Below are positions 10,973-27,325 of a stretch of 32,000 nt of DNA, piece by piece (the stretch's first letter is position 1; each line of letters begins with the position of its first letter). The position numbers and the translations under genes are program-made. The notes under the pieces were generated by a model that saw nothing but the letters and a program-made list of their open reading frames with translations, did not search any database and was not told where the DNA came from. This DNA comes from Geotalea uraniireducens Rf4 (GTDB lineage Bacteria > Desulfobacterota > Desulfuromonadia > Geobacterales > Geobacteraceae), in contig NC_009483.1 of assembly GCF_000016745.1 (NCBI RefSeq), positions 3,660,001-3,692,000 of the forward strand, written 5' to 3'.

Positions 10973-13267
10973 TCAGCAGCGAGCCAGCGCCTCGAAACGT
11001 GCGTTCAGAAGATCCGCCGTCTCGATCATCAGTTTTTCGCCGATCTCGTCGACTTTGCGGTTGCGCCAATTCTCCAGTGGGGTCCCTTTCATCCACTGGT
11101 TGAAAGCGCCAAGCGAGGGGCCGCACTGGACCTGGTAATCGACCTCCTGTCCCGGCCTCCCCTCCAGCGCCGCCTCGGTGCTGTGCCTGAAGTACCACTT
11201 GAAGAGGAAAGCGAGTTTCTGCTTAGGGTTACGCTCCAACCTCTCCTTATCCTCGGGAGAGCGGGAGGAGAGCATCTCGCGGTAGACATCCTCGAAGCTC
11301 CGCTTGAAATATTTCTCCTCAAGCATTTTCTTGGTCTTCTGGTCGATGTCGTTTATGGAGTTGTACTGCCGGTACAGCTCGTAAAGCTTGTTGGCACGGG
11401 AAGGGAAGAAGACCCCGCGCTTCATGACCTGAACCTTGGCACCGAGTTCGAACATATCTCCGGCCGGTGCGTAAGCCGTGTCCTGCATGTTCACCCCCTG
11501 GAGCATGTCTTTCACCGCGTCGCTGGTCCTCGCCTCGACAGTGCATTGGTTGATCGAGCCGGTCAGAATGAAATCAGCTCCCATGATGAGAGCCGCAGCA
11601 GCGGCCTCGGGGGTACCGATCCCGCCGGCTGCGCCGACCCGGACCTCCTTCCGGTAACCGTACCTCTGCACCAGTTCATCGCGCAGCTTCCGAATGGTGG
11701 GAAGGAGGGCGTAGGCCACGGCCCCGTCAGTGTGCCCTCCGGAATCGGCCTCGGCGCAGAGGTCGTCTGCTACCGGTATCTCCTTCAACAGCGCCGCCTG
11801 CTCTTGAGTTATGCTCCGCTCCTGGAGCAGCTTCTCTACCACCCGCTCCGGTGCCGGCGAAAGAAACGCCTCAGCTATCTCCGGCCTCGACACCTTGGCG
11901 ATGATCCGGGTAGCACCCGTGACGGTCCCATCTCCGGAGCGCCGCAGCCCCTGAGCCCGATATCTCACGAGCGCAGGGGTAATGATAAGATAGGCAGAGG
12001 CCTCGACGACCTTCACCCCGTACTTCAGCAGGATATCGACCTTCTGATCCTCGCGGCTCGGGTCGTTGGGGCTATGGAGCAGGTTGACGCCGTACGGCTC
12101 TCCTGCGGTGAGTTTTCCCTGTATGTACTGCACCGCGGCTTCGAGTTCCTGCACCTTCGTTCCGCCGGAGCCCCAGAAACCGAGCATTCCCGCTTGGCCC
12201 AGCTTGACCACCATCTCGGGCGATGAGATCCCCCGGTACATGGAACCGGCTACGTAGGCATACCTCAGATTGTAATCCTGCCTAAAGCTCCTGTTTCCCA
12301 AGTTTGTGGCCGTGATGGCTCCCGAAAGCCCTCCCGCCTCCCTTGCTTGACTGACGACGCTGGCAGCTGGCTGCCGCGCTTTCGCCTCCTCCGGCCGGAT
12401 CACCTCCTCCTCAACGACCAGCGGTTGGGGCTGCCTCCGGATCGTCTCCACCAGGGAGCTAAGTACGTTGCCGGGGCCGATTTCCTCGAAAGTGTCTACT
12501 CCTTTCCCCATCAGGTAGCGGATCGACTCGGTCCATTTCACCGACTGGGAGATCTGCTTCACCAGGTTTGCTTTCACGTCCCCCTTGTAAGGGCGGGCCT
12601 CGACGTTCGAAATTACCGGTATCTCCAGCGGCGAGAAGGTGAATTGCTGGAGGAACGCTTCAAACTCCTTTTGCGAAGCCTTCATGTAGCGGGAATGGAA
12701 GGCCCCGCTGACGTTCAGAGGTATGTAGATGGTCCCCGCCGCCTCGAAGATTGGCGCAATGCGCAGGATCTCTTCTTTCGGCCCAGCAACCACGGTTTGC
12801 GACGGGGCGTTGATGTTGGCAATATCTATGGTCTCTATTTTGTTGCGGCGCAGGATATCCTCCACCTGGTCGGCGCTGACCCCCATCACCGCGGCCATCC
12901 CCCCTCCGGTTGCCTGGCTCATCAGTTGGCCCCGCTTTTGAACCAGCTTGAGCCCCGTCTCGAAATCGAAAGCCTTCCCGGCAAAGAGCGCGTTGTACTC
13001 CCCGAGGCTATGACCGGCAAGGTAATCCGGGCGCATTCCCGTCTCCTGCACCTTCTTCAGGTAGCTCAAGGCATTGACCACGAAAAGTGCCGGCTGGGTG
13101 AACTGGGTTTGCACCAACTGTTTGTGCCGGTCTTCAAGGCACAGGGCCTTTAGGGAATAACCGAGTATGGTGTCTGCCTTTGCAACGAGATCTGGAAACT
13201 CATCGAAGAGGGTGCCCCCCATCCCTTTCTGCTGCGAACCCTGCCCCGGAAAGATATGCGTAACCAT
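10973..13267 (-). CDS. Trans-acting acyltransferase fused to an FMN-type enoyl reductase (PksE/BaeE-like AT-ER)
   Basis: N-terminal FabD-like AT has FPGQGSQ, GHSLGEY, Arg at the FabD R117-equivalent position (LVQKRGQLM) and GAFHS. The C-terminal nitropropane-dioxygenase/PfaD-like ER has GGIGTPEAAAAALIMGADFILTGS. The longest ORF starts at 13285. ATG 13267 has an AAGGGGA RBS and gives MVTHIFPGQGSQ. Confidence 0.9.
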   Translation of the reverse strand: MVTHIFPGQGSQQKGMGGTLFDEFPDLVAKADTILGYSLKALCLEDRHKQLVQTQFTQPALFVVNALSYLKKVQETGMRPDYLAGHSLGEYNALFAGKAFDFETGLKLVQKRGQLMSQATGGGMAAVMGVSADQVEDILRRNKIETIDIANINAPSQTVVAGPKEEILRIAPIFEAAGTIYIPLNVSGAFHSRYMKASQKEFEAFLQQFTFSPLEIPVISNVEARPYKGDVKANLVKQISQSVKWTESIRYLMGKGVDTFEEIGPGNVLSSLVETIRRQPQPLVVEEEVIRPEEAKARQPAASVVSQAREAGGLSGAITATNLGNRSFRQDYNLRYAYVAGSMYRGISSPEMVVKLGQAGMLGFWGSGGTKVQELEAAVQYIQGKLTAGEPYGVNLLHSPNDPSREDQKVDILLKYGVKVVEASAYLIITPALVRYRAQGLRRSGDGTVTGATRIIAKVSRPEIAEAFLSPAPERVVEKLLQERSITQEQAALLKEIPVADDLCAEADSGGHTDGAVAYALLPTIRKLRDELVQRYGYRKEVRVGAAGGIGTPEAAAAALIMGADFILTGSINQCTVEARTSDAVKDMLQGVNMQDTAYAPAGDMFELGAKVQVMKRGVFFPSRANKLYELYRQYNSINDIDQKTKKMLEEKYFKRSFEDVYREMLSSRSPEDKERLERNPKQKLAFLFKWYFRHSTEAALEGRPGQEVDYQVQCGPSLGAFNQWMKGTPLENWRNRKVDEIGEKLMIETADLLNARFEALARC

Positions 13268-13284
13268 GTTAGTTCCCCTTCTCA

Positions 13285-14280
13285 TTATCTTAGTTTTTTG
13301 GTGGTAACCGAACCTATCTGCTGAAGAGATTTCATCTCCTGATGGTAGGGAGTTATCACTGCATAGGTCTCAGAGCGCGAATCGAGCGCGAGATTTCTCC
13401 TCACGAAATTGGCGAGTGTCCCTCCCGGGCCGAGGTCGAGATAAATCATAGGTCCGTCCTTTTCCAGTTCCCTGAGCGCTTCGGTAAAGAGGATCCGCTG
13501 TCTGATGACGTCCCAGAAATAATGTCCCGTAAAGTTTTCCGTGACCGTCCCGGTCAGGCAGGACGCAAAAGGGACGCTGGGAGGGAGAAACTTCTTGGCG
13601 TCAAGGTATTCCCGATAAGGCGTGGCGGCAGGATCTATCAGAGAGGAATGAAAGGCATATGATACCGGGAGAGACTGGGAAAGAATCCTCTCTTTGGCGA
13701 GAAACGCGCGGATCTCCTTGATCTTTTCGGGGAAGCCGGAAATTACGAAGTGGGTATCATAATTGATCGAGACTAGCTCCGAGTTTTGGTAAAGGATCGG
13801 CGCCGACTGGTAAAAAGCGGCGTCGTAAAGGATGGCCAGCATGGAGCCGCCACGGCAATGGTTGATCAGAGTCTTGGCCTGCACAAGGACCGCTTCTAGA
13901 AGCTCCTCGACCTCGGCGACGCCCGCCACCGCAGCCGAAGTAAATTCCCCCAAGCTGCAGCCCAAAGTGGCGCAGGGGAGCACACCGTCCTGAATCAACG
14001 CCTGGGCCAGAGCATATTCGACCATGAATATCGCGGGATGGGTATGGAGGATCTGGTTGAACGGTTCGCTGGGATCCCCCCCCGACCGGTAGAGCAGCTT
14101 CGCCAGGGACTCGCCGATGAGACCGGAGGCAACACCATCGAGCTTGTCGAACGTCTGCCGGAACCCCCTGTGCCCCTTGTAAAGCTCTTTGGCCATGCCG
14201 TAATACTGGGAACCCTGACCGGAAAACATATACACGACTGAATTTGTCACTCTACCTATCCTTACATTCTGGTTCTTCAC
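13285..14280 (-). CDS. Free-standing AT-like protein with non-canonical active-site residues (candidate acyl hydrolase or atypical AT)
   Basis: FSGQGSQ and YAFHS motifs. The nucleophile elbow reads GCSLGE rather than GHSxGE, and Gln sits 25 residues after the Ser where FabD has R117. An alternative GTG start at 14250 has an AAGGA RBS. Confidence 0.85.
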   Translation of the reverse strand: MKNQNVRIGRVTNSVVYMFSGQGSQYYGMAKELYKGHRGFRQTFDKLDGVASGLIGESLAKLLYRSGGDPSEPFNQILHTHPAIFMVEYALAQALIQDGVLPCATLGCSLGEFTSAAVAGVAEVEELLEAVLVQAKTLINHCRGGSMLAILYDAAFYQSAPILYQNSELVSINYDTHFVISGFPEKIKEIRAFLAKERILSQSLPVSYAFHSSLIDPAATPYREYLDAKKFLPPSVPFASCLTGTVTENFTGHYFWDVIRQRILFTEALRELEKDGPMIYLDLGPGGTLANFVRRNLALDSRSETYAVITPYHQEMKSLQQIGSVTTKKLR

Positions 14281-14285
14281 TGAGA

Positions 14286-15131
14286 TTACGATACGTCGTC
14301 GGTGAACAGTCCCTTAAAAATCTTTTGAACGTCGATTTCTATTTCCGTTCTTTTGGGGCAGGTTAGAGAAACAAAGAAATCGGCCATCTTAAATGAAATA
14401 GACTTGTATTGAGAAAAGTTTGAGAAAGTGGATTCTATTAAACCGCCACGTGCTGAGACTCTCGATATCTCGAACACGCTGAAAGGCGTCATCAGTCCGG
14501 TTCTGAGCGATTTCGATAGCGATTCTTTAATGGTCCACGCCATAGTCAAAATGGAGTTGTAATCTAATGCTGACCATTCGTTGAGCGTGTCTAACTCCTT
14601 ACGCGTCATCTCTTTTTCGATAACTTTCGCTTTGGTTGCATCCACCCTCTCTATGTCAATCCCCATCTGGTGGGCAGAAGGAAAGACCAGAGCGGCACCG
14701 ATCTCCGATGCATGCGAGATGCTTATTTCCAGCCGTTCCCCTTGTGTCGAACTGTTACTGATTAGGGGATTATTAAATACACCGTAGTGTATTCGGATAT
14801 CTTCTGGTTTTTCGTTGGACACCAAAGACACTGCCTTTTTCGCCGCGTACCTCCCGATGAGAAAACTCTGTTTCCGCTTCTCGGAGCTCACCCCCGCGTA
14901 ATAGGCGAACTCTTCGCTTGTCAACAGGGAGGCAACGAGACGCTCCGAAGGCAACAAAGGGCAGCGGCACAAACATAGGGCCCCCTGGTTCAGACTCTCC
15001 GGACGACGCAGCCACAACCGAGCGCTATAGGCGCGACACCACCCCCTTGGGGAAAAAACCTCGTGTTGTTGAATCAGCCGCTCCAATGGATGCGATGCTT
15101 CGGTGCTTTTGGCAACCACTTTATCTCCCAT
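14286..15131 (-). CDS. Sfp-type 4'-phosphopantetheinyl transferase
   Basis: ISISHASEIGAALVF, MGIDIERV and WTIKESLSKS motifs. The longest ORF (to 15263) overlaps the upstream gene. ATG 15131 lies 17 nt after that gene's stop. The start is uncertain because there is no clear RBS. Confidence 0.8.
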   Translation of the reverse strand: MGDKVVAKSTEASHPLERLIQQHEVFSPRGWCRAYSARLWLRRPESLNQGALCLCRCPLLPSERLVASLLTSEEFAYYAGVSSEKRKQSFLIGRYAAKKAVSLVSNEKPEDIRIHYGVFNNPLISNSSTQGERLEISISHASEIGAALVFPSAHQMGIDIERVDATKAKVIEKEMTRKELDTLNEWSALDYNSILTMAWTIKESLSKSLRTGLMTPFSVFEISRVSARGGLIESTFSNFSQYKSISFKMADFFVSLTCPKRTEIEIDVQKIFKGLFTDDVS

Positions 15132-15148
15132 GGGGGCAGCAAGCTGTG

Positions 15149-15850
15149 TCACTTGAATGCGAAGGAGTTGGTCTGTCCTTTGCGCATCCGAAAATCGACG
15201 AATTGTCTTTTGCTCTCTAGGTGGAAATAGATGTTGTGCTCCATGACCGAAGCGAGGCTGCAACCGGGAGCGCGCCCATAACAGTGACCCGGAAAGACAG
15301 AAACGTGCGGCTCGACCGTCCGCTTTATCCTCTGAATGCTCTCAAACATCCCCGACGCAGATCCCCCCTCTGTGGTACATATGCCGCACCCCTCGACAAA
15401 TACGGTGTCTCCCGTGAACAGGCTGTGCGACAGCAGATAACACATGCTGCCGGTGGTATGGCCCGGGGTCAGGAGACAGTTGATTAACGTCTCTCCCAGC
15501 CGTATCTGATCGAGATGCTCTGCGGCGAAGAGGTTGTCGCAGGAGAACTGGTAGTAATCCCTTTCCTGCCGGGAGAGTATCACCTTCGGGTCGTACTCTC
15601 GGACCAACGGGGCCACCAGATTGACATGGTCGTAATGGGAGTGGGTCAGCAGTATCATCGTTGGTCTCGCGCCCATCTCTTGCAACTTCCCCTGTAACGC
15701 CTCCAGATCCCAGGCCGGATCGACGATCGCCGCCTCGCCGGAAAAACGGTCCAAGATGATGTAGCAGTAGTTGATCATGAACTGATAACAGATCCTGAGA
15801 GGGAATACCTGGTACCCCTGAATATCGGTACGACACCCTGATGAAGTCAT
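15149..15850 (-). CDS. Metallo-beta-lactamase fold hydrolase (glyoxalase II-like, PksB/BaeB-like)
   Basis: 233 aa with AAGGGG RBS. The LLTHSHYDHV (HxHxDH) motif is present, plus TPGHTTGS and later His/Asp ligands. Confidence 0.85.
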   Translation of the reverse strand: MTSSGCRTDIQGYQVFPLRICYQFMINYCYIILDRFSGEAAIVDPAWDLEALQGKLQEMGARPTMILLTHSHYDHVNLVAPLVREYDPKVILSRQERDYYQFSCDNLFAAEHLDQIRLGETLINCLLTPGHTTGSMCYLLSHSLFTGDTVFVEGCGICTTEGGSASGMFESIQRIKRTVEPHVSVFPGHCYGRAPGCSLASVMEHNIYFHLESKRQFVDFRMRKGQTNSFAFK

Positions 15851-15916: not shown

Positions 15917-16174
15917 TTAGATCCTTTTCAGGTGCTCAAGCAAGTAATCATCGTACAGCTCGGGCCTTGGACAATTCTGCAAGGGTCTCGCAACTTTCTG
16001 TCCCTGTTCATTCCGCACCATCACAGTCTTGGCGCCGAGATCACAGCCGGAATCGGAGGTAGCGGCCAAGCAGCCTTCGCAACCGGGCCACATGATCAAC
16101 TCGGCTAGGGCGTTGGTCACACTCTGGCCAGAAGGCGCCGTAAAGCTACCCTTCATTTCTTTTGTCATGGACAC
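15917..16174 (-). CDS. Small hypothetical protein (85 aa) with four Cys; first gene of the trans-acting PKS operon
   Basis: GGAGG RBS 5 nt before the ATG. The gene shares strand with the MBL gene and lies 66 nt upstream of it. Sequence includes WPGCEGCLAATSDSGCDLG...QNCP. I recognise no family. Confidence 0.55.
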   Translation of the reverse strand: MSMTKEMKGSFTAPSGQSVTNALAELIMWPGCEGCLAATSDSGCDLGAKTVMVRNEQGQKVARPLQNCPRPELYDDYLLEHLKRI

Positions 16175-16201
16175 CTCCGCAGAAAATTTAGTTGCCGCAA
16201 C

Positions 16202-16738
16202 TCATAGTTTCAGCGGTGCAAGTTTCTGGTTCTGGCGCCTGTCGAAGCGGCCGTCGCGGCTATAGCCGAACCGACGAAAGTCGTCCTCGACGAGCGAGCG
16301 GTCTCCGTCGAACCAAGTCGAGGTGATGTCGTAAAAGACGAGGTCCCCCTCGGGCCTGTCCCGGTCACGAAACGCCTTGGCGAGCAGAGGCTCCGGCCAG
16401 CTCTCTGCAGAATCCGTCCGATCCCGATGCCGGCTATTGCGGCCACAAGGGGAAGGGATACCAGATACAGTCATGGAGACGTATTCCCCGGACAAGAACC
16501 AGCCGAATCTGATTACGCATGTCAAGGTCGAGGCCGCTCGCGAGAGCGAGGCCCAGGCCATTTTCACGCTACTCCTAATTGCTCCTATCAATGGTGATAG
16601 TGACTGTGCAGCTACCTTTTTTCTTCTCGATATTGGCGCAGTCTCTCGACGAATCCATCCTGTTATCGGCTTTCGGTTTATGAAAGAATCAAGAGCGGCA
16701 CAGTATCCGCCGGAATGAACGTCGAGGCGTGGCCTCAA
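16202..16738 (-). pseudogene. IS1634/IS4-like transposase remnant
   Basis: The C-terminal part of the ORF reads DLVFYDITSTWFDGDRSLVEDDFRRFGYSRDGRFDRRQ. This matches the conserved YDxTSxYFEG...GYSRDxRxDxxQ block near the N-terminus of IS1634-type transposases. The rest is Arg/Ser-rich and looks frameshifted, and no downstream DDE domain is present. Confidence 0.55.
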
Positions 16739-17310
16739 AGGACCAAGTCTCTGTCAAAACCCGATTTACCGCACCCTTCTCCGTTCAAGGTAGTTCATCA
16801 GAGGAGATCTGAGAAGTGGCCGCAGGTTGGCGTGCTTGCCACCTGTAATGCAGAATGTCTGAAGTGTCTGGACATTTTTTACAAAATCTCCCTAATCGTC
16901 GCATAATTAACCCTACTACATTAAACTGGTATTCAAAAAACTGTGTTACTAGTATCTATTTTCGCAAAAGAAATCACCTGTGCTTAAGGACAGGTGATTT
17001 CTTTCAGTGAACGGGGAGCTGTCGAATCCGGCTCTCTTCTGAACATGTTAGCTGCTACGAACGCCGTCAATTCTGGCCACCTGAAGGCGGTTATCTAGAC
17101 CTTCTTCCCTCCATTTCTTATCACTCACTTATTCACTTCAATCGTCCACTTCACAACCTGTTCAAGTAAGCCCGCTGACGCGGCAGTAAAATCATAACCC
17201 GCCGACTTCCCCGCCCCTTTTCCTCGCCGACTGACATAAATCCTTCCGTACCAGCCGTTCAATCACGTATTTCCTCTTTCGTAGCCATCACACTCGAAAG
17301 GAGAAGGGAC

Positions 17311-18183
17311 ATGATGAACGACTGGTACGAAAGATCGATGAAGGCGCTGCAACTCGCTGGGCTAGCGGAGGGCTCGCAGCAATGCTACACCCGTGCTGTG
17401 CGCATGCTTGTGCTGTTCTACGACAAGACCCCCGACCTGATTTCCGAGGAGGAACTTCAGGAATACTTCCTCCACCGCAGAAACGTCGACAAGTGGTCCT
17501 CCGGGACTCTGCGCATCTGCTACTGCGCGATCCGCTTCTTCTTCGAGAAGGTCCTTCGCCGCGACTGGCACATCTTCGGCTACCTCAAGGCCGAGCGCTC
17601 CAAGAAGCTCCCCGCCGTACTCTCCCAGGAGGAGATCGCCCGCATCCTTTCCTGCGTGCGCACTCCCCACAACCGCGCCTACCTGTTCACCGTCTACTCC
17701 TGCGGACTGCGCCTCCAGGAGGGGCTGCATCTGGAAGTGGGGGACATCGACAGCGACCGCATGCTCATCCATGTGCACCGCGGCAAGGGGGCCAAAGACC
17801 GCATGGTGCCCCTGCCGCCCCCGACCCTGGCGGTGCTGCGCGAGCACTGGAAGTCGCACAAGAACCCGCGCCCGATCTTTCCCGCTCTGGGGTGCGGGGA
17901 CAAGCAGGGCGCGACCGCTGAATCTCCCTTGGCCATAACCACCGTCGTTGGCGCCATGAAGGATGCGGTGCGCCAGGCCGGCATCACCAAGCGCTCCGTG
18001 CACATCCATACGCTTAGGCATTATGCCACGCACCTCCTGGAGGAGGGGGTGAACCTGCGGGTGATCCAGCGCTACCTCGGCCATTCGTCGATCGAGACGA
18101 CCATGGTCTATCTCCATCTGACCCGCAAGGGGCATGATGACGCCGTCCAGATCATCAACCGCCTCATGGGGGAGATCCGCTGA
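17311..18183 (+). CDS. Tyrosine recombinase (phage integrase family), translationally coupled to the IS91 transposase
   Basis: 290 aa with AGGAGAAGGG RBS. Catalytic region includes GLRLQEGLHLEVGDID, HTLRHYATHLLEEG and LGHSSIETTMVYLHL. The TGA stop overlaps the next ATG (TGATG). Confidence 0.9.
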   Translation: MMNDWYERSMKALQLAGLAEGSQQCYTRAVRMLVLFYDKTPDLISEEELQEYFLHRRNVDKWSSGTLRICYCAIRFFFEKVLRRDWHIFGYLKAERSKKLPAVLSQEEIARILSCVRTPHNRAYLFTVYSCGLRLQEGLHLEVGDIDSDRMLIHVHRGKGAKDRMVPLPPPTLAVLREHWKSHKNPRPIFPALGCGDKQGATAESPLAITTVVGAMKDAVRQAGITKRSVHIHTLRHYATHLLEEGVNLRVIQRYLGHSSIETTMVYLHLTRKGHDDAVQIINRLMGEIR

Positions 18184-19280
18184 TGGGCGCCATAGCCGAG
18201 ATCTTCCGCGAGTTCGCCCCCGAATACCTGCGCCGCTTCGGCGACGCCATGCCGCCGGAGCACAGGAAGGTGATCGACGCCATCCTTTTGTGCCGCACCG
18301 AGGAGAACGGCAGCGTCGTCTACCGCTGCGAGGAGTGCGGCCTGAACCACATCCTGAACCGCTCCTGCGGCAACCGGCACTGCCCCCAGTGCCAGAGCCA
18401 CAAGACTACGCAGTGGCTGGAGCGGCAGATGGAGCGCATGCTTCCGGGGCACCACTTCATGCTTACCTTCACCGTGCCCGAGGAGTTGTGCGACTTCATC
18501 CGTTCCCACCAGAGGCTCTGCTACGCTGCGCTCTTCGCCGCCTCCTCGGCGGCGATGAAGAAGCTCTGCCTCGACCCCAGGCACGTGGGGGGCGATCTGC
18601 CGGGCTTCTTCGGCGTCCTGCACACCTGGGGCCGGCAGCTCCAGTACCATCCCCACATCCACTACGTGGTCCCCGGCGGAGCGATCTCCACGGCCGACGG
18701 CAGCTGGCGGCGCAGCGGCGAGCATTTCTTCCTGCCGGTCAAGGCCCTCTCCAGTATCTTCCGCGCCAAGTTCCGCGAAAGTATCGAGAAGGCGGGGCTT
18801 CTGGCCGAAGTTCCCAAGGAGGCGTGGCTAAAGCCCTGGAACGTGAACTCACAGGCGGTGGGCGCGAGCGAGGCGAGCATCAAGTACCTGGCGCCCTACG
18901 TCTTCCGGGTGGCCATCTCCGACCACCGCATCGTGAAGGTGGAAGACGGCAGGGTCTTATTCCGGTACCGGAAACAGAAGAGCAACCGGGAGCGCACCAT
19001 GGCGTTGGATGCCATGGAGTTCCTGCGCCGTTTTCTCCAGCATGTGCTCCCCACCGGCTTTATGAAGGTGCGCTACTACGGCTTCCTGAGCCCGAACGCG
19101 GCCGTATCGCTTGAGGAAGTGAGGACGAAGATCGAACTCGCCTACGGCTTCGACGTACCGGAGCACGAGATGGAACCGAAGCCGAAAGCTGCCCTCACCT
19201 GCCGAGGATGCGGCAGCTTGGTGCGGTACCTGTTCGTAAATCTCCCGGCAAAAAGGTGGCCGTCTGGACCGTCGGGATAG
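18183..19280 (+). CDS. IS91-family rolling-circle (Y2/HUH) transposase
   Basis: The zinc-binding N-terminus is CEECGLNHILNRSCGNRHCPQCQ. HUH region is HTWGRQLQYHPHIHYVVPGG. Also present are YLAPYVFRVAISDHRIV and RYYGFLS. Confidence 0.92.
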   Translation: MGAIAEIFREFAPEYLRRFGDAMPPEHRKVIDAILLCRTEENGSVVYRCEECGLNHILNRSCGNRHCPQCQSHKTTQWLERQMERMLPGHHFMLTFTVPEELCDFIRSHQRLCYAALFAASSAAMKKLCLDPRHVGGDLPGFFGVLHTWGRQLQYHPHIHYVVPGGAISTADGSWRRSGEHFFLPVKALSSIFRAKFRESIEKAGLLAEVPKEAWLKPWNVNSQAVGASEASIKYLAPYVFRVAISDHRIVKVEDGRVLFRYRKQKSNRERTMALDAMEFLRRFLQHVLPTGFMKVRYYGFLSPNAAVSLEEVRTKIELAYGFDVPEHEMEPKPKAALTCRGCGSLVRYLFVNLPAKRWPSGPSG

Positions 19281-19570
19281 CGGCCTCCCGGAAGTTCCCA
19301 CTCAATGTGCCAATGATCAGCGCCTCTCTGCAGCGGAGATAGGGGCGTTACCGGTGAAGTGCGTCCTGTGCTCGGCGAAGCCGCCGTGAAAGGAGCTGGT
19401 GACGGCAACAATTGGCGCATCTCGGCATCAAATATCGCCGATCCGGGCTCTATGCAGGATGCCGCGACGGCAAGCTCCCCCCTCAACTCCTCTCCACAGC
19501 AGTAGCCTGTTGAACCATTCCCCATATAGAAAGAACGGTGCCAGCCAGGGCCGGGCTTCTTGAACAATGA

Positions 19571-19599
19571 ATTGAACCGACCTTGCAGGTCGGTTCAAT
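19571..19599. other. Perfect 12-bp stem hairpin downstream of the IS91 transposase; candidate IS91 end structure
   Basis: attgaaccgacc-ttgca-ggtcggttcaat. It contains GTTC and CTTG tetranucleotides. No T-tract follows, so it does not look like a terminator. Confidence 0.4.
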
Positions 19600-19648
19600 C
19601 CTTAATCGTTGGATGGTGAGTACGTAGTATGCAGTAAACAAGAAAGTA

Positions 19649-19668
19649 ACCTGTACTTTTAGCCAGCT
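19649..19668 (+). promoter_or_regulatory. lux-box-like 20-bp dyad upstream of the luxI homolog
   Basis: ACCTGTACTTTTAGCCAGCT. The left arm ACCTGTA equals the left arm of the classical lux box as I recall it, and the CT-N12-AG spacing is satisfied. The centre lies ~62 bp before the ATG, with TATTTT -10 candidates at 19680-19690. Confidence 0.5.
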
Positions 19669-19720
19669 GATATTAATTGTATTTTATTTTACCCTCCAGC
19701 GAACCGTAGGGGGGGTAAGT

Positions 19721-20470
19721 ATGAAAATTTCAAGAGCAAGATTGTTGCCAAGTAGCTGGCAAAAACCGCAATCGTCAATACTTTTCTCGGAGAGCAATTT
19801 CAAGGTCAAATACATTAAGAGTGAAAAAGATAAAGTAATGTCTTATCAATTAAGGCATAGAATTTTTTGTAACGAGTTAAAGTGGGTACCAAGAAGAGAG
19901 GACAGTCAGGAAGTTGATAGTTATGACAAGGATGCAACAAGTATAGGAGTGTATAATGAAGCTGGAAATCTAGTTTCGATGGTAAGAATTATAGTTTCTG
20001 ATAATACCTTCATGCTTGAGAAAGAATTTCCGTTTCTCCTTGAGGACGGTTATAATCTCCGCAAAGAAAGGGACACAGTGGAACTTTCCAGGCTGTGCGT
20101 TGCCCCAGAGGCAAGAAACGCCACTTTTGCAGACAACTTTGGACTTCACGTCATATCGATGCTTCTTTACAAGGGGGTCTATCATTGGTGTCTGGCTAAC
20201 ACTGTGCGCTACATATACATGGTCGTGGAGCAGAGGGTTTACCGGCTGTTATGTGCAAAGGGCTTTCCCTGCAAACTAGTTGGCGCCCCCGTAGTCATGC
20301 CGGACGGAGTGGAAGCTGTTGCAGCGATTCTTGATTGGCGGGAGTTTGAGATGGTAAATATCGTGAGACGGCCGAAACTTTTGGAATGGTTCAGTCGATA
20401 TCAATCAAGCCGACCGACAAAGCTACGGCAACAGCGTGGATCCGACTCACTGCATCAAGCTTTCTCATGA
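19721..20470 (+). CDS. luxI: LuxI-family acyl-homoserine-lactone synthase homolog
   Basis: LRHRIFCNELKWVPRREDSQEVDSYDKDATSIGVYNEAGNLVSMVRII carries the conserved R, F, W, E, D, D and R positions of autoinducer synthases. ELSRLCV is also present. A GGGGGG RBS precedes the ATG. Confidence 0.8.
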   Translation: MKISRARLLPSSWQKPQSSILFSESNFKVKYIKSEKDKVMSYQLRHRIFCNELKWVPRREDSQEVDSYDKDATSIGVYNEAGNLVSMVRIIVSDNTFMLEKEFPFLLEDGYNLRKERDTVELSRLCVAPEARNATFADNFGLHVISMLLYKGVYHWCLANTVRYIYMVVEQRVYRLLCAKGFPCKLVGAPVVMPDGVEAVAAILDWREFEMVNIVRRPKLLEWFSRYQSSRPTKLRQQRGSDSLHQAFS

Positions 20471-21158
20471 CATTATCGACATGGAACTTCACGGTCCGCT
20501 CGCTTATGGCAAGAATAGTAGAGATGTCCCAGGAGCTCTTGCCTTTCTTGATCCAGTTGAGCACCTCTCTTTCACGGATGGTAATGGTGGTTGATATCTT
20601 GCCTTTTTTCTCAACTGATAGGACTTGGCGAAAGGCTTGGTGAAGGTGAGGGGCAAGGAGATTCAGAACCAGTTCGTTGCGTGGCTCCTTCTTGATGGGG
20701 CCTGAAATGGAAAAGATACACCCTTCGGTCCTGAAACTATTGGTGATGCCAATTGCATAACCGTCTACGAGACGAAAGTCTAGAGCTGCTGAAAGGAACT
20801 TCGCCTCTACATCATAGGTATTGAAAGTATCTTTCCAGTACTGCAAGCTGTAATTCTTGAAATTTTCCGTTGTAATCGGATCCAGCAAATGAAAGTTGTT
20901 GGTCCGATAGGCGTCGAGCCATTCAGCGGGGTAGGAGAAATTTAGTGTCTCATAGGCAGTTATGCAGCCGTGGTGGTTCAATTTAGCTAGACCGTAGACT
21001 GCATGGTCGAAACCGATGAGATCTCTGGTTTTATTTGCAATACTCCCTGCTTCTGTTACGTTTGAGCAAGAAACGCACGAGTTGACAATCTCAAGCAGGA
21101 GGAAACAATCCTTTTTGGATAAAATCTCTGCTGCGCTGAACATAACTCCTCCAATCAT
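20391..21158 (-). CDS. luxR: LuxR-family regulator (autoinducer-binding domain plus LuxR HTH)
   Basis: The ligand-domain strings are SYPAEWLDAYRTNNFHLLDPI...YW. The C-terminal HTH is REREVLNWIKKGKSSWDISTILAISERTVKFHVDNVMRKL. An alternative start at 21143 has a GGAGGAG RBS. Confidence 0.88.
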   Translation of the reverse strand: MIGGVMFSAAEILSKKDCFLLLEIVNSCVSCSNVTEAGSIANKTRDLIGFDHAVYGLAKLNHHGCITAYETLNFSYPAEWLDAYRTNNFHLLDPITTENFKNYSLQYWKDTFNTYDVEAKFLSAALDFRLVDGYAIGITNSFRTEGCIFSISGPIKKEPRNELVLNLLAPHLHQAFRQVLSVEKKGKISTTITIREREVLNWIKKGKSSWDISTILAISERTVKFHVDNVMRKLDAVSRIHAVAVALSVGLIDID

Positions 21159-21276
21159 ATCATATTAGATCATGTCATGTACCCGCGGCAAAGCCGGGGG
21201 CTTGAGTTGAGCAAGCCATTTAGATAGAGAAAAACGCCTATATATCACCACGTGATATCGCAAGAGATAATCATGC

Positions 21277-21573
21277 GTGGGAACGACACAGCAAAGAGAA
21301 GCTCTATCCGACGAACACTTCAGCGTAGACGGCACCCTCATCGAGACATGGGCTTCCATCAAGAGTTTTCAACCCAAGGATGGGCCGAAGTGCCTGGCCG
21401 ACCATTTCGGCCACGACCTGGAGGTAAGGTTTCCACATGTCAGTGTGCAGATGAAGCGAAACAATGACGAGCGTTCCCCCGAACCGAATTCCTGGAAGAG
21501 ACCCTTCAATATCTTCCGGGTACGATCTTTACCAACTCAGAGCAGCCTCTTGCAACCGGAATCTACGTGGTAG
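21277..21573 (+). pseudogene. IS5/IS1182-type transposase fragment
   Basis: LSDEHFSVDGTLIETWASIKSFQPKDG is a hallmark internal block of these transposases. Both the N-terminal and DDE C-terminal parts are missing or degenerate. Confidence 0.65.
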
Positions 21574-21808
21574 ACCGGTTCAGGAATTTTTCGCTCTTCT
21601 TTCGCCAGCAGATTTCGTCTGCCGACTGCGGTAAAGTGATTTTTCCCTTCTGCCCAAGGGATTCGTTCCGTTTTATGCCGCAGACTCGTCGCCTAGCGTA
21701 GAGGAAAATACTGCAATGCCCAACAACAAATCAAACATCCGCTTTATTAACACGAGTCATAAATTAACACAAGCTACTTTATCGTTACAAATGTAACTCA
21801 TCAAATCT

Positions 21809-21875
21809 GGGAGGAGGCGGCCGTTAGGCCACCCCCTCCCAACAGAACCGATCGTACCGGCCAGGTAAGCCGCTC
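21809..21875 (-). ncRNA. Possible group II intron domain V / domain VI remnant
   Basis: On the minus strand, ~30 nt after the maturase stop, lies GAGCGGCUUACCUGGCCGGUACGAUCGGUUC. It has the AGC triad, a 2-nt 3'-side bulge and two mismatches. After a 4-nt linker comes a 14-bp hairpin that is fully paired only as minus-strand RNA (two G-U pairs). Confidence 0.35.
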
Positions 21876-21906
21876 TTCGATTAGTGATTGAAGTTGTTTC
21901 ACAAGG

Positions 21907-22299
21907 TTACATCGTGAAGTCATTGAGAAATACCAGCCCTTGCGCCCTGAACCAGTAGAGGCTCATCACAAATCGAACCTCTTTGCGATTCACGGATCGC
22001 CACCTGTTCATCTTGACCCAAATCTTATGAGCGTCTTCGGGTTTGTATCCCGAACGGATCATCATCCGCTGGAACTTATGCGGCTTTTTCCATTTCTTCA
22101 GCTGTGTGGAACGAAGCCGACTTCGAATCCATGAATCAAGGTCTCTGAATATGTTCTTGAACTCCTGGATTCTGAAGTAATTCACCCATCCCCTTAGGTA
22201 CTCGTTCAGGCTCTGGATCAGCTGGTACATCGACAACGGGTTGTTTCTTTTAGTCAGCTCCCGGACTTTTCTCTTGAACTTAGTCCGCGCTTTCCCACT
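21907..22299 (-). pseudogene. Group II intron reverse transcriptase/maturase, C-terminal part (interrupted by IS1595)
   Basis: SGKARTKFKRKVRELTKRNNPLSMYQLIQSLNEYLRGWVNYFRIQEF is a typical domain X/maturase sequence. The frame continues across the IS1595 insertion into 23531-23779. Confidence 0.8.
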
Positions 22300-22394
22300 C
22301 GGACCTATAACCCAAACAAAGGCTGCCTGATGGTAACTACGACATAATCTGTCACGGTACCAGGTTATGATCCCACCTCAAAGGAGGAGGGACC

Positions 22395-23483
22395 ATGACT
22401 GCTGATGAACTTCGAGCGATGCTGCCAAACGAGAAAGCTTGCCGCCGCTTTCTCGAAGAGATGATCTGGAAAAACGGCCGAGTATGCCCCCATTGTGGGT
22501 GCATGGAGTCGTGGGCCATTGAGGGTCCCTCAGCTCGCCCTGGTCTTTACGAGTGTTCAGGGTGCCGGCTCCAATTCACGGTGACCACCAAAACACCGAT
22601 GCACGGCACCAAACTCAAGCTATTACTCCGGCAATTAAACATCACAATCCTGATGTAGGGGCACGGCGCGCCGTGCCCCGATTGGGCGAGGCAAGCCTGG
22701 CCCCTACCGTTCACATGTTTAATTGCCGCAGTAATATGGATCTGGATCCTCGGCATGTACTACATGGTCCATTCCAGCAAAGGAGTTTCCTCCGTCTTCA
22801 TGGGCCGCTGGCTAGGTATCTCACAGAAGACCGCCTGGAAGCTCTGCCACTCAATCCGGGAAATGATGGATACCAGCCACGAGAATTTCCCCGCGGTTGG
22901 CGGTGTCGTCGAGATTGACGAGAAATTCCTTGGTGGCAAGCCCCGCAAAGAGAAGGGTGTGGTCCACAAGCGTGGCAAAGGGACCAGAAAGCAGGGCATT
23001 CTTGTCATGGTCAAACGCCATGGCATCGTCAGAGCTGAACTGATCGATAGCGCCAGTATCGAGGACATCCGACCCCATGTTGAACGACACGTGGACAAGG
23101 ATTCGTACCTTATGACGGATCAGAACCCGGCATACCGATCAATTGCAGCGAAATATGCGGGACACTCGTATGTTAACCATAGCTACGATGAGTTCGCCAG
23201 AGGTGAAGTCCATAACAACACCGCGGAATCCTTTAACGCCCAGCTCGAACGTACAAAGCAGGGGGTGTTTCACTGGCTTAGCAAGGACCACATGAAACGC
23301 TACATCAACGAGATCGCGTTTCGCTGGAATCACCGGTTGCCGGAGAAGAATAGAAAAGGCAAGATCGTGATGAAACCAATGCCTGTATTGACACTGTTGG
23401 AGTCGCTCCTGGGCTGCGCCGTCTGGAGGGGGATCAGAAGGACACCCAACGGCAGTTTCAGAGTTTGCTCCAACTATGTATGA
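22395..23483 (+). pseudogene. IS1595-family transposase, split by a ~100-bp insertion that carries an in-frame TAG
   Basis: The Zn-ribbon part (CPHCGCMESW...YECSGCRLQFTVTTKTPMHGTKLKL) and the DDE part (YYMVHSSKGVSS...VVEIDEKFLGG...) are in the same reading frame. The intervening 22629-22728 has no homology logic and contains TAG at 22656-22658. Confidence 0.85.
22629..22728. repeat. MITE/REP-like palindromic insertion inside the IS1595 transposase gene
   Basis: 14-bp perfect terminal inverted repeats: cggcaattaaacat / atgtttaattgccg. Inner inverted pair: gtaggggc / gcccctac. A 22-bp perfect GC-rich palindrome, ggggcacggcgcgccgtgcccc, lies at 22658-22679. Confidence 0.7.
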
Positions 23484-23530
23484 GTACAACAGAATCTGAT
23501 GAATGAACCTTTGTTTGGGTTATAGGTCCG

Positions 23531-23779: not shown

Positions 23780-24577
23780 CTATAGGGAAGGAACAAGGCC
23801 GAGATACGTCATGAGCTTCTTGGGGTGATCGAACCTCGTAAGGTCGCCAATCTCCGCTACTGTAGTTGCTGCCACGATGAGGGAAACTCCCCGGAGCGCT
23901 TGCAGTGCCTTGACAACGGGAGCCATGCGCCAAGTGGGAACCAGCGTCTCAATCTGCTGGGTGAGTCGTTCTACTCGTGCAGTGGCTTCTTTAATGGTGT
24001 TTATATATTCTTGGAACACCACCTGTTGCGCTGGCATAGGCATCTTCTGATCGGCGAGCCAGTTAAAGTGCAGTTTTGTCCAGTTATCCTTTGGATACCT
24101 GAAGCCTAAGCGAAGCAGCATGCCACCTAATTGTTGTTTCGATATACGCTGTGCTTTTTTGGCGTCCTCCCTCGCGCGAGTGAGGTCACGCATGGCCTCG
24201 TCATCCGTACGGGGTACGAACACGTAGGTCAATTCTCCGGCACGGTGAAGGCGAGCAAGCATCATGGCGTCATGACGATCCGTCTTGATCCGGTCAGCAG
24301 GGCTCTTGGGTATATGTGCAGGTGACACCACGGCACAGTCAAAATTTTTGTCTGTCAAGAAGCGAAAAATATCATAACCGCAGGGACCGGCTTCATACAC
24401 GAAACGGAGTTCCTTACTCGTAGAGGCCAGCTTCTTTACCAGACGATCAAGATCGTCAAGTCCTCCACCGATAGTCCTATAATGCCTTACCTCGGCATTG
24501 CGACCGGCATCGGCAAGGGCCACACTAATCGAGTTTTTGTGTACATCGAGACCAACAAATGTGATAAGCTTTTCCAT
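23780..24577 (-). pseudogene. IS110-family transposase, 3'-truncated
   Basis: N-terminal DEDD domain (FVGLDVHKNSISVALAD, YEAGPCGY, VVSPAHIP, KTDRHDA). The start of the C-terminal domain is present (LQALRGVSLIVAATTVAEIGDLTRF...YLGLVPS). The ORF then ends where family members continue by about 70-80 aa. Confidence 0.8.
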
Positions 24578-24982
24578 GACCTGCCTCCTTGGTTGTGGCT
24601 CTGCGCCGTGGTGATTTTAGTTTCCACAGCATAACCCACGTTTGCAAGGATGGCAGGTCTTTTTGTTTCTACGTTTCAACTGACAACCATTATGTCTAGA
24701 AAGTCGAACGTTCCCGGTTTATCACCGGTCTTTGCCAGGTCAGCACGTACGAAACGCCCACAGCGCATAAGCCGCGTCTTTTCCTCCGCCAATTCCAGTC
24801 CGAAAACCATCAGTTTACATTATTGCATTTTTTAAAATGCCAGTGCCGGGGTTCGATCCAGGCATTTTTTGCTCCTGCCATTTTTTCTTCGGATTCGCCC
24901 AAAAGCGCCTTCCCCCCCTCGTGATTATATATGCAGGGGATTCGAATCTCCCTTAATCTGCACCAAAAAGGAGGAGGTATTC

Positions 24983-27250: not shown

Positions 27251-27325
<75 letters not shown>

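What the first reader, a model, noticed from the sequence alone, without database searches (positions are those of the whole stretch)
19571..21170. Convergent LuxI/LuxR pair with 80-bp 3' overlap, on an AT-rich islet between IS91 and IS5 debris and 3.5 kb from the PKS tailoring operon
Seen in sequence:
- The 249-aa protein carries the conserved LuxI-family residues, and the 255-aa protein has an autoinducer-binding domain plus a LuxR HTH.
- The two ORFs converge and overlap by 80 nt (20391-20470).
- The islet is visibly lower in GC than its surroundings. It is bounded on the left by the IS91 hairpin and on the right by an IS5 fragment.

Established knowledge: convergent, overlapping luxI/luxR arrangements exist (esaI/esaR-type) and allow antisense or transcriptional-interference control. 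AHL circuits commonly control secondary-metabolite clusters.

Inference: this is a horizontally acquired quorum-sensing module that may gate the neighbouring PKS. AHL signalling would be uncommon in the anaerobic deltaproteobacterial lineage suggested by the backbone genes.
Basis: partly seen in the sequence, partly recalled or inferred. Interest (0 to 1): 0.7.

Follow-up and report, generated by a model that had tools for sequence, protein, structure and literature searches.

The report
CviIR-type quorum-sensing pair in Geotalea uraniireducens
This is a real but already annotated gene pair for an acyl-homoserine-lactone signal synthase and its receptor in Geotalea (Geobacter) uraniireducens; it is built like the well-studied CviI/CviR system of Chromobacterium and probably switches on itself and a neighbouring polyketide-accessory operon.

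Summary
luxI (19721-20470, +) and luxR (20391-21143/21158, -) converge and overlap by exactly 80 nt. Both pass Pfam thresholds. All canonical LuxI residues and AHL-contact residues of the receptor are present. Sequence and fold searches put the synthase with true AHL synthases, not with FeeM or exosortase-type enzymes.

The window is from Geotalea uraniireducens. The pair is annotated and has been listed in two published surveys, one of which links it to a biosynthetic cluster.

The closest known system is CviI/CviR of Chromobacterium, not EsaI/EsaR. CviI/CviR has the same reported 80-bp overlap and the same CTGT-N8-ACAG operator, and CviR is the best structural match (E 1e-32).

New here:
- The 80-nt overlap is kept in 56 of 75 related loci from Nitrospirota, Desulfobacterota and others, and the luxI frame stays open far more often than synonymous resampling predicts.
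- The operator sits upstream of luxI across the clade and covaries with a recognition-helix arginine.
- A perfect copy (16976-16995) lies on the side of the MBL/PPTase/AT/AT-ER operon, and a Geobacteraceae MAG has a similar one.

IS91 and IS1634 insertions have since split this regulon. No ketosynthase gene is in the window. This is a new member of a known kind, of modest interest.

The parts
19721..20470 (+). luxI-type acyl-homoserine-lactone synthase gene (249 aa). The core fold spans residues ~20-230. The last ~18 residues are predicted disordered and lie within the part of the protein (residues 224-249) that is encoded inside the overlap.
   Evidence: (100% identical to the annotated G. 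uraniireducens AHL synthase).
20391..21158 (-). luxR-type AHL receptor and transcription factor gene. The ORF is 255 aa; the likely true start is ATG at 21143 (250 aa).
   Evidence: CviR E 1e-32; Y76, W80, Y84, D93, W108, S150 conserved; Shine-Dalgarno read.
20391..20470 (.). 80-nt convergent 3' overlap that codes on both strands. It encodes the LuxR C-terminal helix and the LuxI tail (residues 224-249).
   Evidence: 80 nt in 56 of 75 loci; luxI frame kept open against the synonymous-codon expectation; literature (80 bp in Chromobacterium).
19649..19668 (.). luxI-proximal lux/CviR-type box ACCTGTACTTTTAGCCAGCT (10 of 12 consensus positions; the right half-site is degenerate). Its centre is 62.5 nt upstream of the luxI ATG.
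   Evidence: same position in most clade loci; covariation with the receptor.
19688..19693 (+). Candidate weak -10 hexamer TTTACC for the LuxR-dependent luxI promoter, 32 nt from the box centre. Inferred only.
   Evidence: Aligned with TCTAAT, TCTAGT and TCTACC in related loci. Not detected by the consensus promoter scan.
16976..16995 (.). Perfect operator ACCTGTGCTTAAGGACAGGT (12 of 12). It is embedded in a 34-nt palindrome (16965-16998) and is the best-scoring site in the window.
   Evidence: PWM 31.1; the PWM was trained without the window; sequence; intact in L030 and L032; also a stable hairpin. About 0.002 exact matches are expected in 32 kb by my own estimate.
16951..16956 (-). Candidate -10 hexamer GATACT on the minus strand, 32 nt from the strong box centre and pointing toward the accessory operon. 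Inferred only.
   Evidence: Read from the sequence. The L003 box has TAAACT 34 nt from its centre, toward MBL (sequence).
15917..16174 (-). Small ORF (83-85 aa) with a strong GGAGGTG Shine-Dalgarno. It is the first gene of the accessory operon and its function is unknown.
   Evidence: called as an 83-aa gene. No family hit and no homolog in the related loci.
10973..15850 (-). Trans-AT PKS accessory operon and putative QS target. It comprises a SolJ-like MBL hydrolase (15149-15850), a PPTase (14286-15263), an AT (13285-14280), and an AT-enoylreductase that is a FabD+PfaD fusion (10973-13285).
   Evidence: MBL, PPTase and AT-ER also lie next to the QS pair in L003.
16202..16738 (-). IS1634-family transposase fragment lying between the strong box and the operon. 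A secondary insertion.
   Evidence: 34 bits, E 1.4e-8. Shared with L032.
17311..19602 (+). Tyrosine recombinase plus IS91-family transposase, with a terminal hairpin (19569-19602). It lies between the strong box and the luxI box; the left end of the element is not defined.
   Evidence: L032 shares it with a partly deleted transposase, and colinearity with the window resumes at 19598.
21277..21573 (+). IS5-family transposase fragment that bounds the module on the right.
   Evidence: 28 bits, E 1.1e-6. Weak support.

Best explanation
This is a CviI/CviR-type acyl-homoserine-lactone quorum-sensing module of Geotalea uraniireducens.

Proposed mechanism:
- LuxI makes an AHL from SAM and an acyl carrier. 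The acyl chain is unknown.
- LuxR binds the AHL through the conserved Tyr/Trp/Asp/Ser pocket and then binds 20-bp palindromes of the form ACCTGT-N8-ACAGGT.
- A degenerate copy 62 nt upstream of luxI gives positive feedback on signal synthesis.
- A perfect copy at 16976-16995 drives, or once drove, leftward transcription of a small ORF followed by MBL, PPTase, AT and AT-ER. These are accessory enzymes of a trans-AT polyketide or PUFA-like pathway.
- The two genes end tail to tail with an 80-nt overlap that is a conserved, selected feature of the whole family. With no terminator between them, convergent transcripts must run into each other, which probably damps co-expression.
- Int/IS91 and IS1634 insertions later separated luxI from the strong box, and the box from its operon.

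Shown: gene identity, conserved residues, overlap conservation, operator conservation and covariation.
Inferred: AHL production, activation rather than repression, control of the operon, and any regulatory role of the overlap.
For: Identity of the two proteins:
- Pfam thresholds are passed.
- The only PDB sequence hits with E below 0.01 are the AHL synthases TofI, RpaI, EsaI, BjaI and LasI.
- The AF2 model (pLDDT 85.9) has all ten best fold matches to AHL synthases, at E 4e-13 to 2e-10. FeeM is at 7.7e-8.
- R45, F49, W55, E64, D66, D69, R89, E121 and R124 are invariant or nearly so in 32 clade members. They sit at a constant offset of about 20 from the LuxI active-site residues listed in the paper read.
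- LuxR matches CviR at E 1e-32 with Y76, W80, Y84, D93, W108 and S150 aligned to the CviR ligand-pocket residues.

Operator:
- CTGT-N8-ACAG lies at a fixed distance upstream of luxI in 16 of 22 loci (15 besides the window) and in 35 of 55 unique loci at 10 or more of 12 consensus positions.
- All seven loci with the variant half-site ACCTAC have lost the Arg of the 'SERT' recognition-helix motif. Every locus with a 6/6-palindromic ACCTGT box keeps it.

Operon link:
- The best site in the window is the 12-of-12 box at 16976-16995 (PWM 31.1; about 0.9 hits at score 8 or more are expected in shuffles).
- The Geobacteraceae MAG L003 has CCTGTCCTTAAGGACAG between luxR and its own MBL, PPTase and AT-ER genes.

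Overlap:
- It is exactly 80 nt in 56 of 75 loci.
- The null probability of keeping 77 nt or more open averages 0.30 per lineage, but 31 of 35 lineages keep it. None of 200,000 simulations reached that count.
- No terminators were found in 19.5-21.5 kb.

Literature:
- Chromobacterium csuI/csuR (cviI/cviR) have an 80-bp convergent overlap and the box CTGTCCGATAGGACAG, and they make C6-HSL.
- G. uraniireducens Rf4 is listed among luxR-linked BGCs.
Against: - No AHL has been reported from G. uraniireducens in the searched library.
- The synthase is divergent: TraI-type NCBIfam models score 78 bits against a cut-off of 292, and the exosortase-type model scores a comparable 61 bits.
- The luxI box in the window is degenerate in its right half-site (10 of 12).
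- The strong box is 1.1 kb from the MBL start, with IS1634 debris in between. It is also a very stable 34-nt hairpin flanked by T-rich runs, so it could act as a terminator.
- Only one independent locus besides the species itself shows the QS-PKS accessory link.
- No KS or ACP gene is in the window, so the 'PKS' may be incomplete.
- The -10 elements are weak and inferred, and the consensus scan found no promoter at either box.
- The stop-avoidance test cannot fully remove shared ancestry.
Confidence: 0.65

Rival explanations
1. The QS pair works, but its link to the polyketide-accessory operon is vestigial. IS1634 and Int/IS91 insertions have uncoupled the promoter and operator from the operon, the pathway lacks its megasynthase, and the strong box is a leftover.
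For: An IS1634 fragment lies between the box and the operon, and Int/IS91 lies between the box and luxI. No KS or ACP gene is in the window, and a low-GC AraC-type regulator directly follows AT-ER. The region is very rich in IS elements. The 99%-identical relative L032 has further decay, with a truncated IS91 transposase.
Against: The accessory genes are intact ORFs and are 95-98% conserved in L032. The box is a perfect 12 of 12 and is identical in L032 and L030. Read-through of 0.5 kb of IS debris is possible. The megasynthase could lie outside the window.
Confidence: 0.2
2. The 34-nt palindrome at 16965-16998 is a bidirectional terminator or an IS-related hairpin rather than a LuxR operator. 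In that case only luxI autoregulation is real.
For: It folds at -26.8 and -22.2 kcal/mol on the two strands (z about -6) and is flanked by T-rich runs. It lies in an IS-rich intergenic region.
Against: Its core matches a matrix trained on other loci's luxI boxes as well as the best training sites do. The homologous operon in L003 has a near-identical core without the long extension. The tool's terminator scan did not call it.
Confidence: 0.1
3. The pair follows EsaI/EsaR-type logic. LuxR would be a repressor that binds DNA without signal and is released by AHL, with the overlap providing antisense control.
For: The topology is convergent and overlapping, as in the R2 class. The direction of regulation cannot be read from sequence.
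Against: The receptor's best solved relative is the activator CviR. The box lies upstream of luxI with about 32 nt to a weak -10, which is activator geometry. No box scoring 8 or more lies in the luxR promoter region of the window. Chromobacterium shares both the 80-bp overlap and the box.
Confidence: 0.08
4. The LuxI-like enzyme is not an AHL synthase but an N-acyl amino acid synthase of the exosortase-associated or FeeM type.
For: TIGR03694 scores 61 bits and FeeM 25.5 bits. Some JGI annotations of clade members use the exosortase-type name.
Against: Both scores are below their cut-offs. FeeM is absent from the sequence hits and ranks 14th by fold. All SAM and active-site residues of LuxI are invariant. 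The partner is an Autoind_bind receptor with an intact AHL pocket. No exosortase or PEP-CTERM genes were seen in the window.
Confidence: 0.04

Closest known systems
CviI/CviR (CsuI/CsuR) of Chromobacterium violaceum and C. subtsugae
   Same: The genes are convergent with a reported 80-bp 3' overlap. A 16-bp CTGT-N8-ACAG palindrome lies upstream of the synthase gene (CTGTCCGATAGGACAG there; CTGTGCTTAAGGACAG and CTGTACTTTTAGCCAG here). The receptor is the best solved-structure match (E 1e-32), with the ligand-pocket residues conserved. In Chromobacterium it controls secondary metabolism.
   Different: The host is an anaerobic metal reducer (Desulfobacterota) rather than a betaproteobacterium. 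The signal is unknown. The putative target is a trans-AT PKS accessory operon. The locus is broken up by IS insertions. I did not have a CviI sequence, so synthase identity to CviI was not measured.
Convergent-overlap 'R2' topology of LuxR/LuxI circuits (Gelencser et al. 2012), including EsaI/EsaR-type pairs
   Same: Convergent luxR and luxI genes with overlapping 3' ends. The class has 53 genomes with overlaps of 2-79 bp, and antisense or interference control has been proposed but not shown.
   Different: The operator position and the receptor's relatives here point to an activator with positive feedback, not an EsaR-like repressor. The overlap sits at the top of the published range and is fixed at 80 nt across phyla.
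luxR-linked biosynthetic gene clusters (Brotherton, Medema and Greenberg 2018)
   Same: G. uraniireducens Rf4 is explicitly listed as one of three deltaproteobacteria with a luxR homolog next to a BGC.
   Different: In the parts I could read, that survey gives no operator, overlap or IS analysis. Its supplementary files held here do not mention the organism.
Quorum-sensing-regulated trans-AT PKS clusters, such as mupirocin MupI/MupR and solanimycin (from general knowledge)
   Same: An AHL pair sits next to trans-AT PKS accessory genes, and the MBL protein is SolJ-like. mupR/mupI regulation of mupirocin is cited.
   Different: No megasynthase is present in the window, and the product is unknown.

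Membership tests
LuxI-family AHL synthase (PF00765) | Profile match above the curated threshold | tested here: met
   Autoind_synth scores 59.6 bits against a cut-off of 24. The NCBIfam TraI equivalog models are below their cut-offs, at 78 against 292, so it is a divergent member.
LuxI-family AHL synthase (PF00765) | Conserved active-site and SAM-binding residues (LuxI R25, F29, W35, E44, D46, D49, R70, E101, R104) | tested here: met
   R45, F49, W55, E64, D66, D69, R89, E121 and R124 are invariant or at least 90% conserved in 32 clade members. They align to TofI, EsaI, BjaI and RpaI. The residue list is cited in the paper read.
LuxI-family AHL synthase (PF00765) | AHL-synthase fold closer than other GNAT or N-acyl amino acid synthase folds | tested here: met
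   Foldseek ranks 1-10 are all AHL synthases (4e-13 to 2e-10). FeeM is at 7.7e-8.
LuxI-family AHL synthase (PF00765) | Produces an acyl-homoserine lactone | not testable with these tools
   Needs expression with LC-MS/MS or biosensors. No report was found for this organism.
LuxR-family AHL receptor | Autoind_bind domain plus C-terminal GerE HTH, with the AHL-contact residues | tested here: met
   Autoind_bind 97.9 bits and GerE 69.2 bits. Y76, W80, Y84, D93, W108 and S150 align with CviR Y80, W84, Y88, D97, W111 and S155. The residue roles are from memory of the CviR structures.
CviI/CviR-type module | Convergent genes with an ~80-bp 3' overlap | tested here: met
   80 nt here and in 56 of 75 relatives. 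80 bp is reported for C. subtsugae and the same arrangement for C. violaceum. An older paper counts 74 bp.
CviI/CviR-type module | CTGNCCNNNNGGNCAG-type palindrome upstream of the synthase gene | tested here: met
   CTGTACTTTTAGCCAG at 19651-19666. The position is conserved across the clade and covaries with the receptor.
CviI/CviR-type module | Receptor most similar to CviR | tested here: met
   CviR scores 116.7 bits (E 1e-32), against RhlR at 72.7 and LasR at 62.7 bits.
CviI/CviR-type module | Synthase orthologous to CviI; signal C6- or C10-HSL | not tested
EsaI/EsaR-type (repressor) circuit | Box overlapping the luxR promoter, with luxI not autoinduced | tested here: not met
   No box scoring 8 or more lies upstream of luxR in the window. 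The box lies upstream of luxI at activator spacing. Repressor behaviour itself is not testable here.
PEP-CTERM/exosortase-associated N-acyl amino acid synthase (TIGR03694) | Profile score above cut-off and an exosortase/EpsA context | tested here: not met
   61.2 bits against a cut-off of 111.95. The EpsA model matches only the HTH half of LuxR, at 80 bits against 170. No exosortase genes were found among the window ORFs.
FeeM-type N-acyl amino acid synthase (PF21926) | Profile score above the gathering threshold, or closest fold | tested here: not met
   25.5 bits against a cut-off of 27. It is not among the PDB sequence hits and ranks 14th by fold.

The most novel reading that the evidence does not exclude
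The fixed 80-nt tail-to-tail overlap may be a selected regulatory device of the whole CviI/CviR-type family, from Chromobacterium to Geobacter and Nitrospirota. Translation or transcription of luxI through the 3' end of luxR, and the reverse, would give built-in negative coupling that tempers the positive feedback loop. The luxI frame is kept open even though most of the tail it encodes is variable and disordered.

A second, less likely reading is that the adjacent PPTase, AT and AT-ER enzymes supply an unusual acyl donor, so that the signal itself is a new kind of AHL.
Probability: 0.3. Interest if true: 0.55.

Novelty: new member of a known kind. Interest (0 to 1): 0.3.

Why it matters
Geobacter and its relatives matter for metal and uranium reduction and for electroactive biofilms. 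AHL signalling has been demonstrated in only a few isolates of this group.

This analysis supplies a defined signal/receptor pair, a predicted operator (ACCTGT-N8-ACAGGT) and a candidate target operon. That makes quorum-sensing control in G. uraniireducens directly testable.

It also shows that one CviIR-like family, with a strictly conserved gene overlap, is spread through anaerobic Nitrospirota and Desulfobacterota. That makes the family a natural system for asking whether convergent gene overlap in LuxI/LuxR circuits is functional, a question raised in 2012 and still unresolved.

None of this changes the basic picture: it is an ordinary AHL circuit next to secondary-metabolite genes.

Tried and rejected
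- **Sequencing error creating the overlap.** Rejected, because the same 80 nt occurs in 56 of 75 loci.
- **Exosortase-type or FeeM-type synthase.** Rejected on profile cut-offs, PDB hits, fold ranking, conserved residues and partner protein.
- **EsaR-type logic.** Considered unlikely.
- **Looking further left in the genome for PKS megasynthases.** The look-up of ORF 1911-2780 found no record. The P0001 look-up only returned contigs that lie inside the window.
- **Brotherton 2018 supplements.** No mention of the organism.
- **The 83-85 aa ORF upstream of MBL.** No family hit and no homolog in any related locus.
- **Intergenic DNA of the window against L003.** Only the MBL coding region aligns, so the insertion point of IS91 could not be mapped to the base. 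Comparison with L001 did not help either.
- **Rfam.** Nothing in or near the module; only a tRNA at 27254-27325.
- **Consensus promoter and terminator scan.** No promoter at either box and no terminator between the genes.
- **Weak matrix hits at 7735-7750 and 8953-8968.** At chance level.
- **LuxR wobble-position entropy.** On its own it was ambiguous: most sites in the overlap are free and only L5, V19, D3 and I4 are constrained. I therefore used the resampling tests.
Full report
**1. Observation.** One runs 19721..20470 (+, 249 aa) and the other 20391..21158 (-, 255 aa). They converge and share 20391-20470, which is 80 nt. Pfam gives Autoind_synth at 59.6 bits (cut-off 24) for the first. For the second it gives Autoind_bind at 97.9 bits and GerE at 69.2 bits. 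The receptor probably starts at the second ATG (21143, 250 aa). That ATG follows a GGAGGA Shine-Dalgarno, and the public annotation and the homologs are 250 aa.

The islet 19603-21250 has GC 0.444, against 0.525 for the window. Housekeeping genes such as guaA run 0.55-0.60, and the IS91 genes are at 0.63.

To the left lies an intact IS91-family transposase (380 bits) preceded by a tyrosine recombinase. The element ends in a stable hairpin at 19569-19602. To the right there is a weak IS5-family fragment (28 bits).

The neighbouring operon encodes a SolJ-like MBL hydrolase, a PPTase, an acyltransferase and a FabD+PfaD (AT-enoylreductase) fusion. These are trans-AT PKS or PUFA accessory enzymes rather than tailoring enzymes. 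The window contains no ketosynthase or megasynthase gene.

**2. Source and prior knowledge.** Both proteins are 100% identical to annotated proteins of Geotalea (Geobacter) uraniireducens, named 'acyl-homoserine-lactone synthase' and 'LuxR family transcriptional regulator'. [quoted passage not shown] 2012. That 2012 paper defines the convergent-overlap 'R2' topology: 53 genomes, overlaps of 2-79 bp, and interference proposed but unproven. Brotherton et al. 2018 list G. uraniireducens Rf4 as one of three deltaproteobacteria with a luxR-linked biosynthetic cluster. I found no experimental test of AHL production by this species. Related organisms do make AHL-like signals: D. soudanensis and G. 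soli. Four of five luxI genes expressed from cold-seep MAGs, drawn from Nitrospirota and Pseudomonadota, made AHLs.

**3. Is the synthase a real AHL synthase?** In the PDB sequence search, the only hits with E below 0.01 are the AHL synthases TofI, RpaI, EsaI, BjaI and LasI, and FeeM is not hit. In an alignment of 32 clade members, R45, F49, W55, E64, D66, D69, R89, E121 and R124 are invariant or nearly so. They sit at a constant offset of about 20 from the classical LuxI residues R25, F29, W35, E44, D46, D49, R70, E101 and R104; the list is cited. An AlphaFold model (pLDDT 85.9) has its ten best PDB fold matches among AHL synthases, at E 4e-13 to 2e-10, while FeeM comes at 7.7e-8. The exosortase-type model TIGR03694 scores 61 bits against a cut-off of 112, and FeeM scores 25.5 against 27. 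The synthase is divergent, since the TraI-type equivalog models are far below their cut-offs. Even so, every testable defining feature of the LuxI family is met.

**4. The receptor.** The best solved relative is CviR of Chromobacterium (E 1e-32, 116.7 bits, nearly full length). RhlR, LasR, QscR, SdiA and TraR follow. Y76, W80, Y84, D93, W108 and S150 align with CviR Y80, W84, Y88, D97, W111 and S155, which form the AHL pocket. The residue roles are from my memory of the CviR structures.

**5. The overlap is a family trait.** I fetched 80 related loci from genome and metagenome collections. The clade occurs mainly in Nitrospirota, Geobacteraceae, Desulfovibrionales and Solidesulfovibrio, Desulfobacterales, Thermodesulfobacteriota and Deferribacteres MAGs. 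These are mostly anaerobes, so this kind of module is not rare there. In every locus where both genes are present, luxI and luxR converge. The stop-to-stop overlap is exactly 80 nt in 56 of 75 loci. The exceptions are mostly the most distant members, at 43% identity or less. This rules out a sequencing error.

The frame relation puts LuxR wobble positions opposite LuxI second codon positions. The luxI stop, T[GA]A, lies antisense to the conserved LuxR dipeptide (V/I)(M/K). Most LuxR wobble sites in the overlap vary freely, so the LuxI tail sequence is not conserved. AlphaFold predicts residues 231-248 as disordered. Wobble choices that would create an earlier luxI stop are avoided, notably at the Leu fifth from the LuxR end and the Val nineteenth from it.

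I then resampled synonymous LuxR codons from each locus's own usage. The luxI frame stayed open as far as it does with a mean probability of 0.24-0.30 per lineage. Yet 31 of 35 core-clade lineages, collapsed at 85% nucleotide identity, keep 77 nt or more. None of 200,000 simulations reached that number. Shared ancestry is not fully removed, but synonymous sites are heavily diverged at 40-55% protein identity. I conclude that the open frame, and hence the overlap, is maintained by selection.

**6. The operator.** A CTGT-N8-ACAG palindrome, extended consensus ACCTGT-N8-ACAGGT, lies at a fixed distance upstream of luxI. It is present in 16 of 22 loci, counting the window, and in 35 of 55 unique loci at 10 or more of 12 consensus positions. 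About 32 nt downstream of its centre there is a weak -10-like hexamer: TCTAAT in L003 and TTTACC in the window. This is the geometry of LuxR-type activator-dependent promoters.

Sub-lineages carry variant half-sites, and these covary with the receptor. All seven loci with ACCTAC...GTAGGT have replaced the Arg of the recognition-helix motif S-E-R-T by Asn or Asp. Every locus with a 6/6-palindromic ACCTGT box keeps the Arg, and ACCTGGCG boxes go with a Lys-to-Arg change two residues later. This covariation is strong evidence that the palindromes are the LuxR binding sites. The window's LuxR has the SERT motif. Its luxI box, at 19649-19668, matches 10 of 12 positions.

**7. Link to the accessory operon.** I trained a weight matrix on the other loci only. 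Its best hit in the whole window is not the luxI box (score 17.9). It is a perfect 12-of-12 site at 16976-16995, ACCTGTGCTTAAGGACAGGT, scoring 31.1. About 0.002 exact matches are expected in 32 kb by my own estimate. The site lies on the operon side of the IS91 element, and a candidate -10 (GATACT) sits 32 nt away, pointing toward the operon.

In the Geobacteraceae MAG L003 (LuxI 53% identical), homologous MBL, PPTase and AT-ER genes lie directly next to luxR with no IS between them. A near-identical box core, CCTGTCCTTAAGGACAG, precedes them. The orientation of the QS pair relative to the operon differs between the two genomes, so the association has survived a rearrangement.

There are several caveats:
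- Only this one independent locus shows the link.
- In the window, 0.5 kb of IS1634 debris and an uncharacterised 83-aa ORF lie between the box and MBL.
- The box sits inside a 34-nt palindrome that is also a very stable hairpin.
- No megasynthase is in view.

**8. History of the locus.** A metagenome contig with a 99%-identical luxI (L032) is colinear with window 9012-18748 and 19598-22299. It shares the Int/IS91 element, with the 3' part of the transposase deleted, and the IS1634 debris. It lacks the IS1595 at about 22300-23530. The closest non-conspecific relative, L001 (71% identity), has a perfect box 72 nt upstream of a weaker luxI-proximal box that is almost identical to the window's. 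The most economical reading is as follows. The ancestral layout was operon, strong box, weak box, luxI. Int/IS91 then landed between the two boxes, with its right end about 47 nt from the luxI box, which left the luxI promoter intact. The IS elements are therefore secondary insertions and not the vehicle that brought the module in. Low GC and the cross-phylum distribution still fit horizontal acquisition at some earlier time: identity to Nitrospirota sequences equals identity to the Geobacteraceae MAG.

**9. Comparison with known systems.** The literature on Chromobacterium reports exactly this design. The csuI/csuR (cviI/cviR) genes are convergent with an '80 bp overlap zone'. A CTGTCCGATAGGACAG palindrome lies upstream of the synthase gene and gives positive feedback. 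The authors suggest that the overlap gives negative coupling. An older paper counts 74 bp and shows C6-HSL production. Together with the CviR structural match, this makes CviI/CviR the closest known system rather than EsaI/EsaR. I could not obtain a CviI sequence, so orthology of the synthase was not tested.

**10. Verdict.** The finding is real and correctly described, but it is an annotated and previously listed LuxI/LuxR pair of a known architectural type. This analysis adds a predicted operator with receptor covariation, a specific candidate target, an account of how IS elements have split the regulon, and evidence that the 80-nt overlap is under selection across phyla. Interest is modest. 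Novelty: a new member of a known kind.

Noticed in passing
window 1-5000: About 5 kb with GC 0.44-0.59 but no ORF longer than 289 aa. The longest ORF has no Pfam or NCBIfam match, and Rfam finds nothing. It may be a heavily degraded gene (perhaps the missing megasynthase) or non-coding DNA.
   Followed up: partly
window 15917-16174 (-): An 83-85 aa ORF with a strong GGAGGTG Shine-Dalgarno lies directly upstream of the MBL gene. It is called as a gene in public assemblies but has no family match and no homolog in any related locus. It could be a precursor peptide or a carrier-like protein.
   Followed up: partly
window 6500-10800: A second low-GC islet (GC 0.38-0.44) carries an AraC-type response regulator (9963-10763), an LpxD-like hexapeptide acyltransferase (7925-8968) and a class V aminotransferase (6680-7816). 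It lies directly downstream of the AT-ER gene. Two chance-level box-like sites are at 7735-7750 and 8953-8968.
   Followed up: partly
window 5129-6343, 16202-16738, 17311-19602, 21277-21573, 21907-22236, 22755-23483, 23780-24577: IS density is very high: Mutator-family, IS1634 fragment, Int+IS91, IS5 fragment, group II intron maturase fragment, IS1595 and IS110. The IS1595 copy is absent from the 99%-identical relative L032, so it arrived recently.
   Followed up: partly
L014, L015, L035, L036, L048, L052, L055 (upstream of luxI): Seven loci use the variant operator ACCTAC-N8-GTAGGT, and their LuxR has Asn or Asp instead of the Arg in the SERT recognition motif. L062, L068 and L075 use ACCTGGCG...CGCCAGGT with an ERTVR motif. 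This is a natural specificity-switch series.
   Followed up: partly
L002 2218-2233; L001 9894-9913 and 11540-11555: Extra operator copies occur in other loci. In L002 one lies upstream of a radical-SAM, NifH-like, nitrogenase-like and methyltransferase cluster. In L001 a perfect box sits 72 nt upstream of the luxI box, and another lies near the luxR start next to a BrnT toxin gene. The regulon differs between hosts.
   Followed up: no
L014 2915-3646 and 4487-5221: This Deferribacteres MAG locus has two LuxR homologs flanking luxI, one upstream and one in the usual convergent position, with an 83-nt overlap.
   Followed up: no
window 27254-27325 (-): A tRNA gene (Rfam 74.6 bits) lies immediately beside a CCA-adding / poly(A) polymerase family gene (27343-28695).
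   Followed up: no
window 24869-25864 (+): An ORF with a weak match, just below threshold, to the archaeal actin-like MreB C-terminal domain (27.2 bits against a cut-off of 27.8). It sits among IS elements.
   Followed up: no
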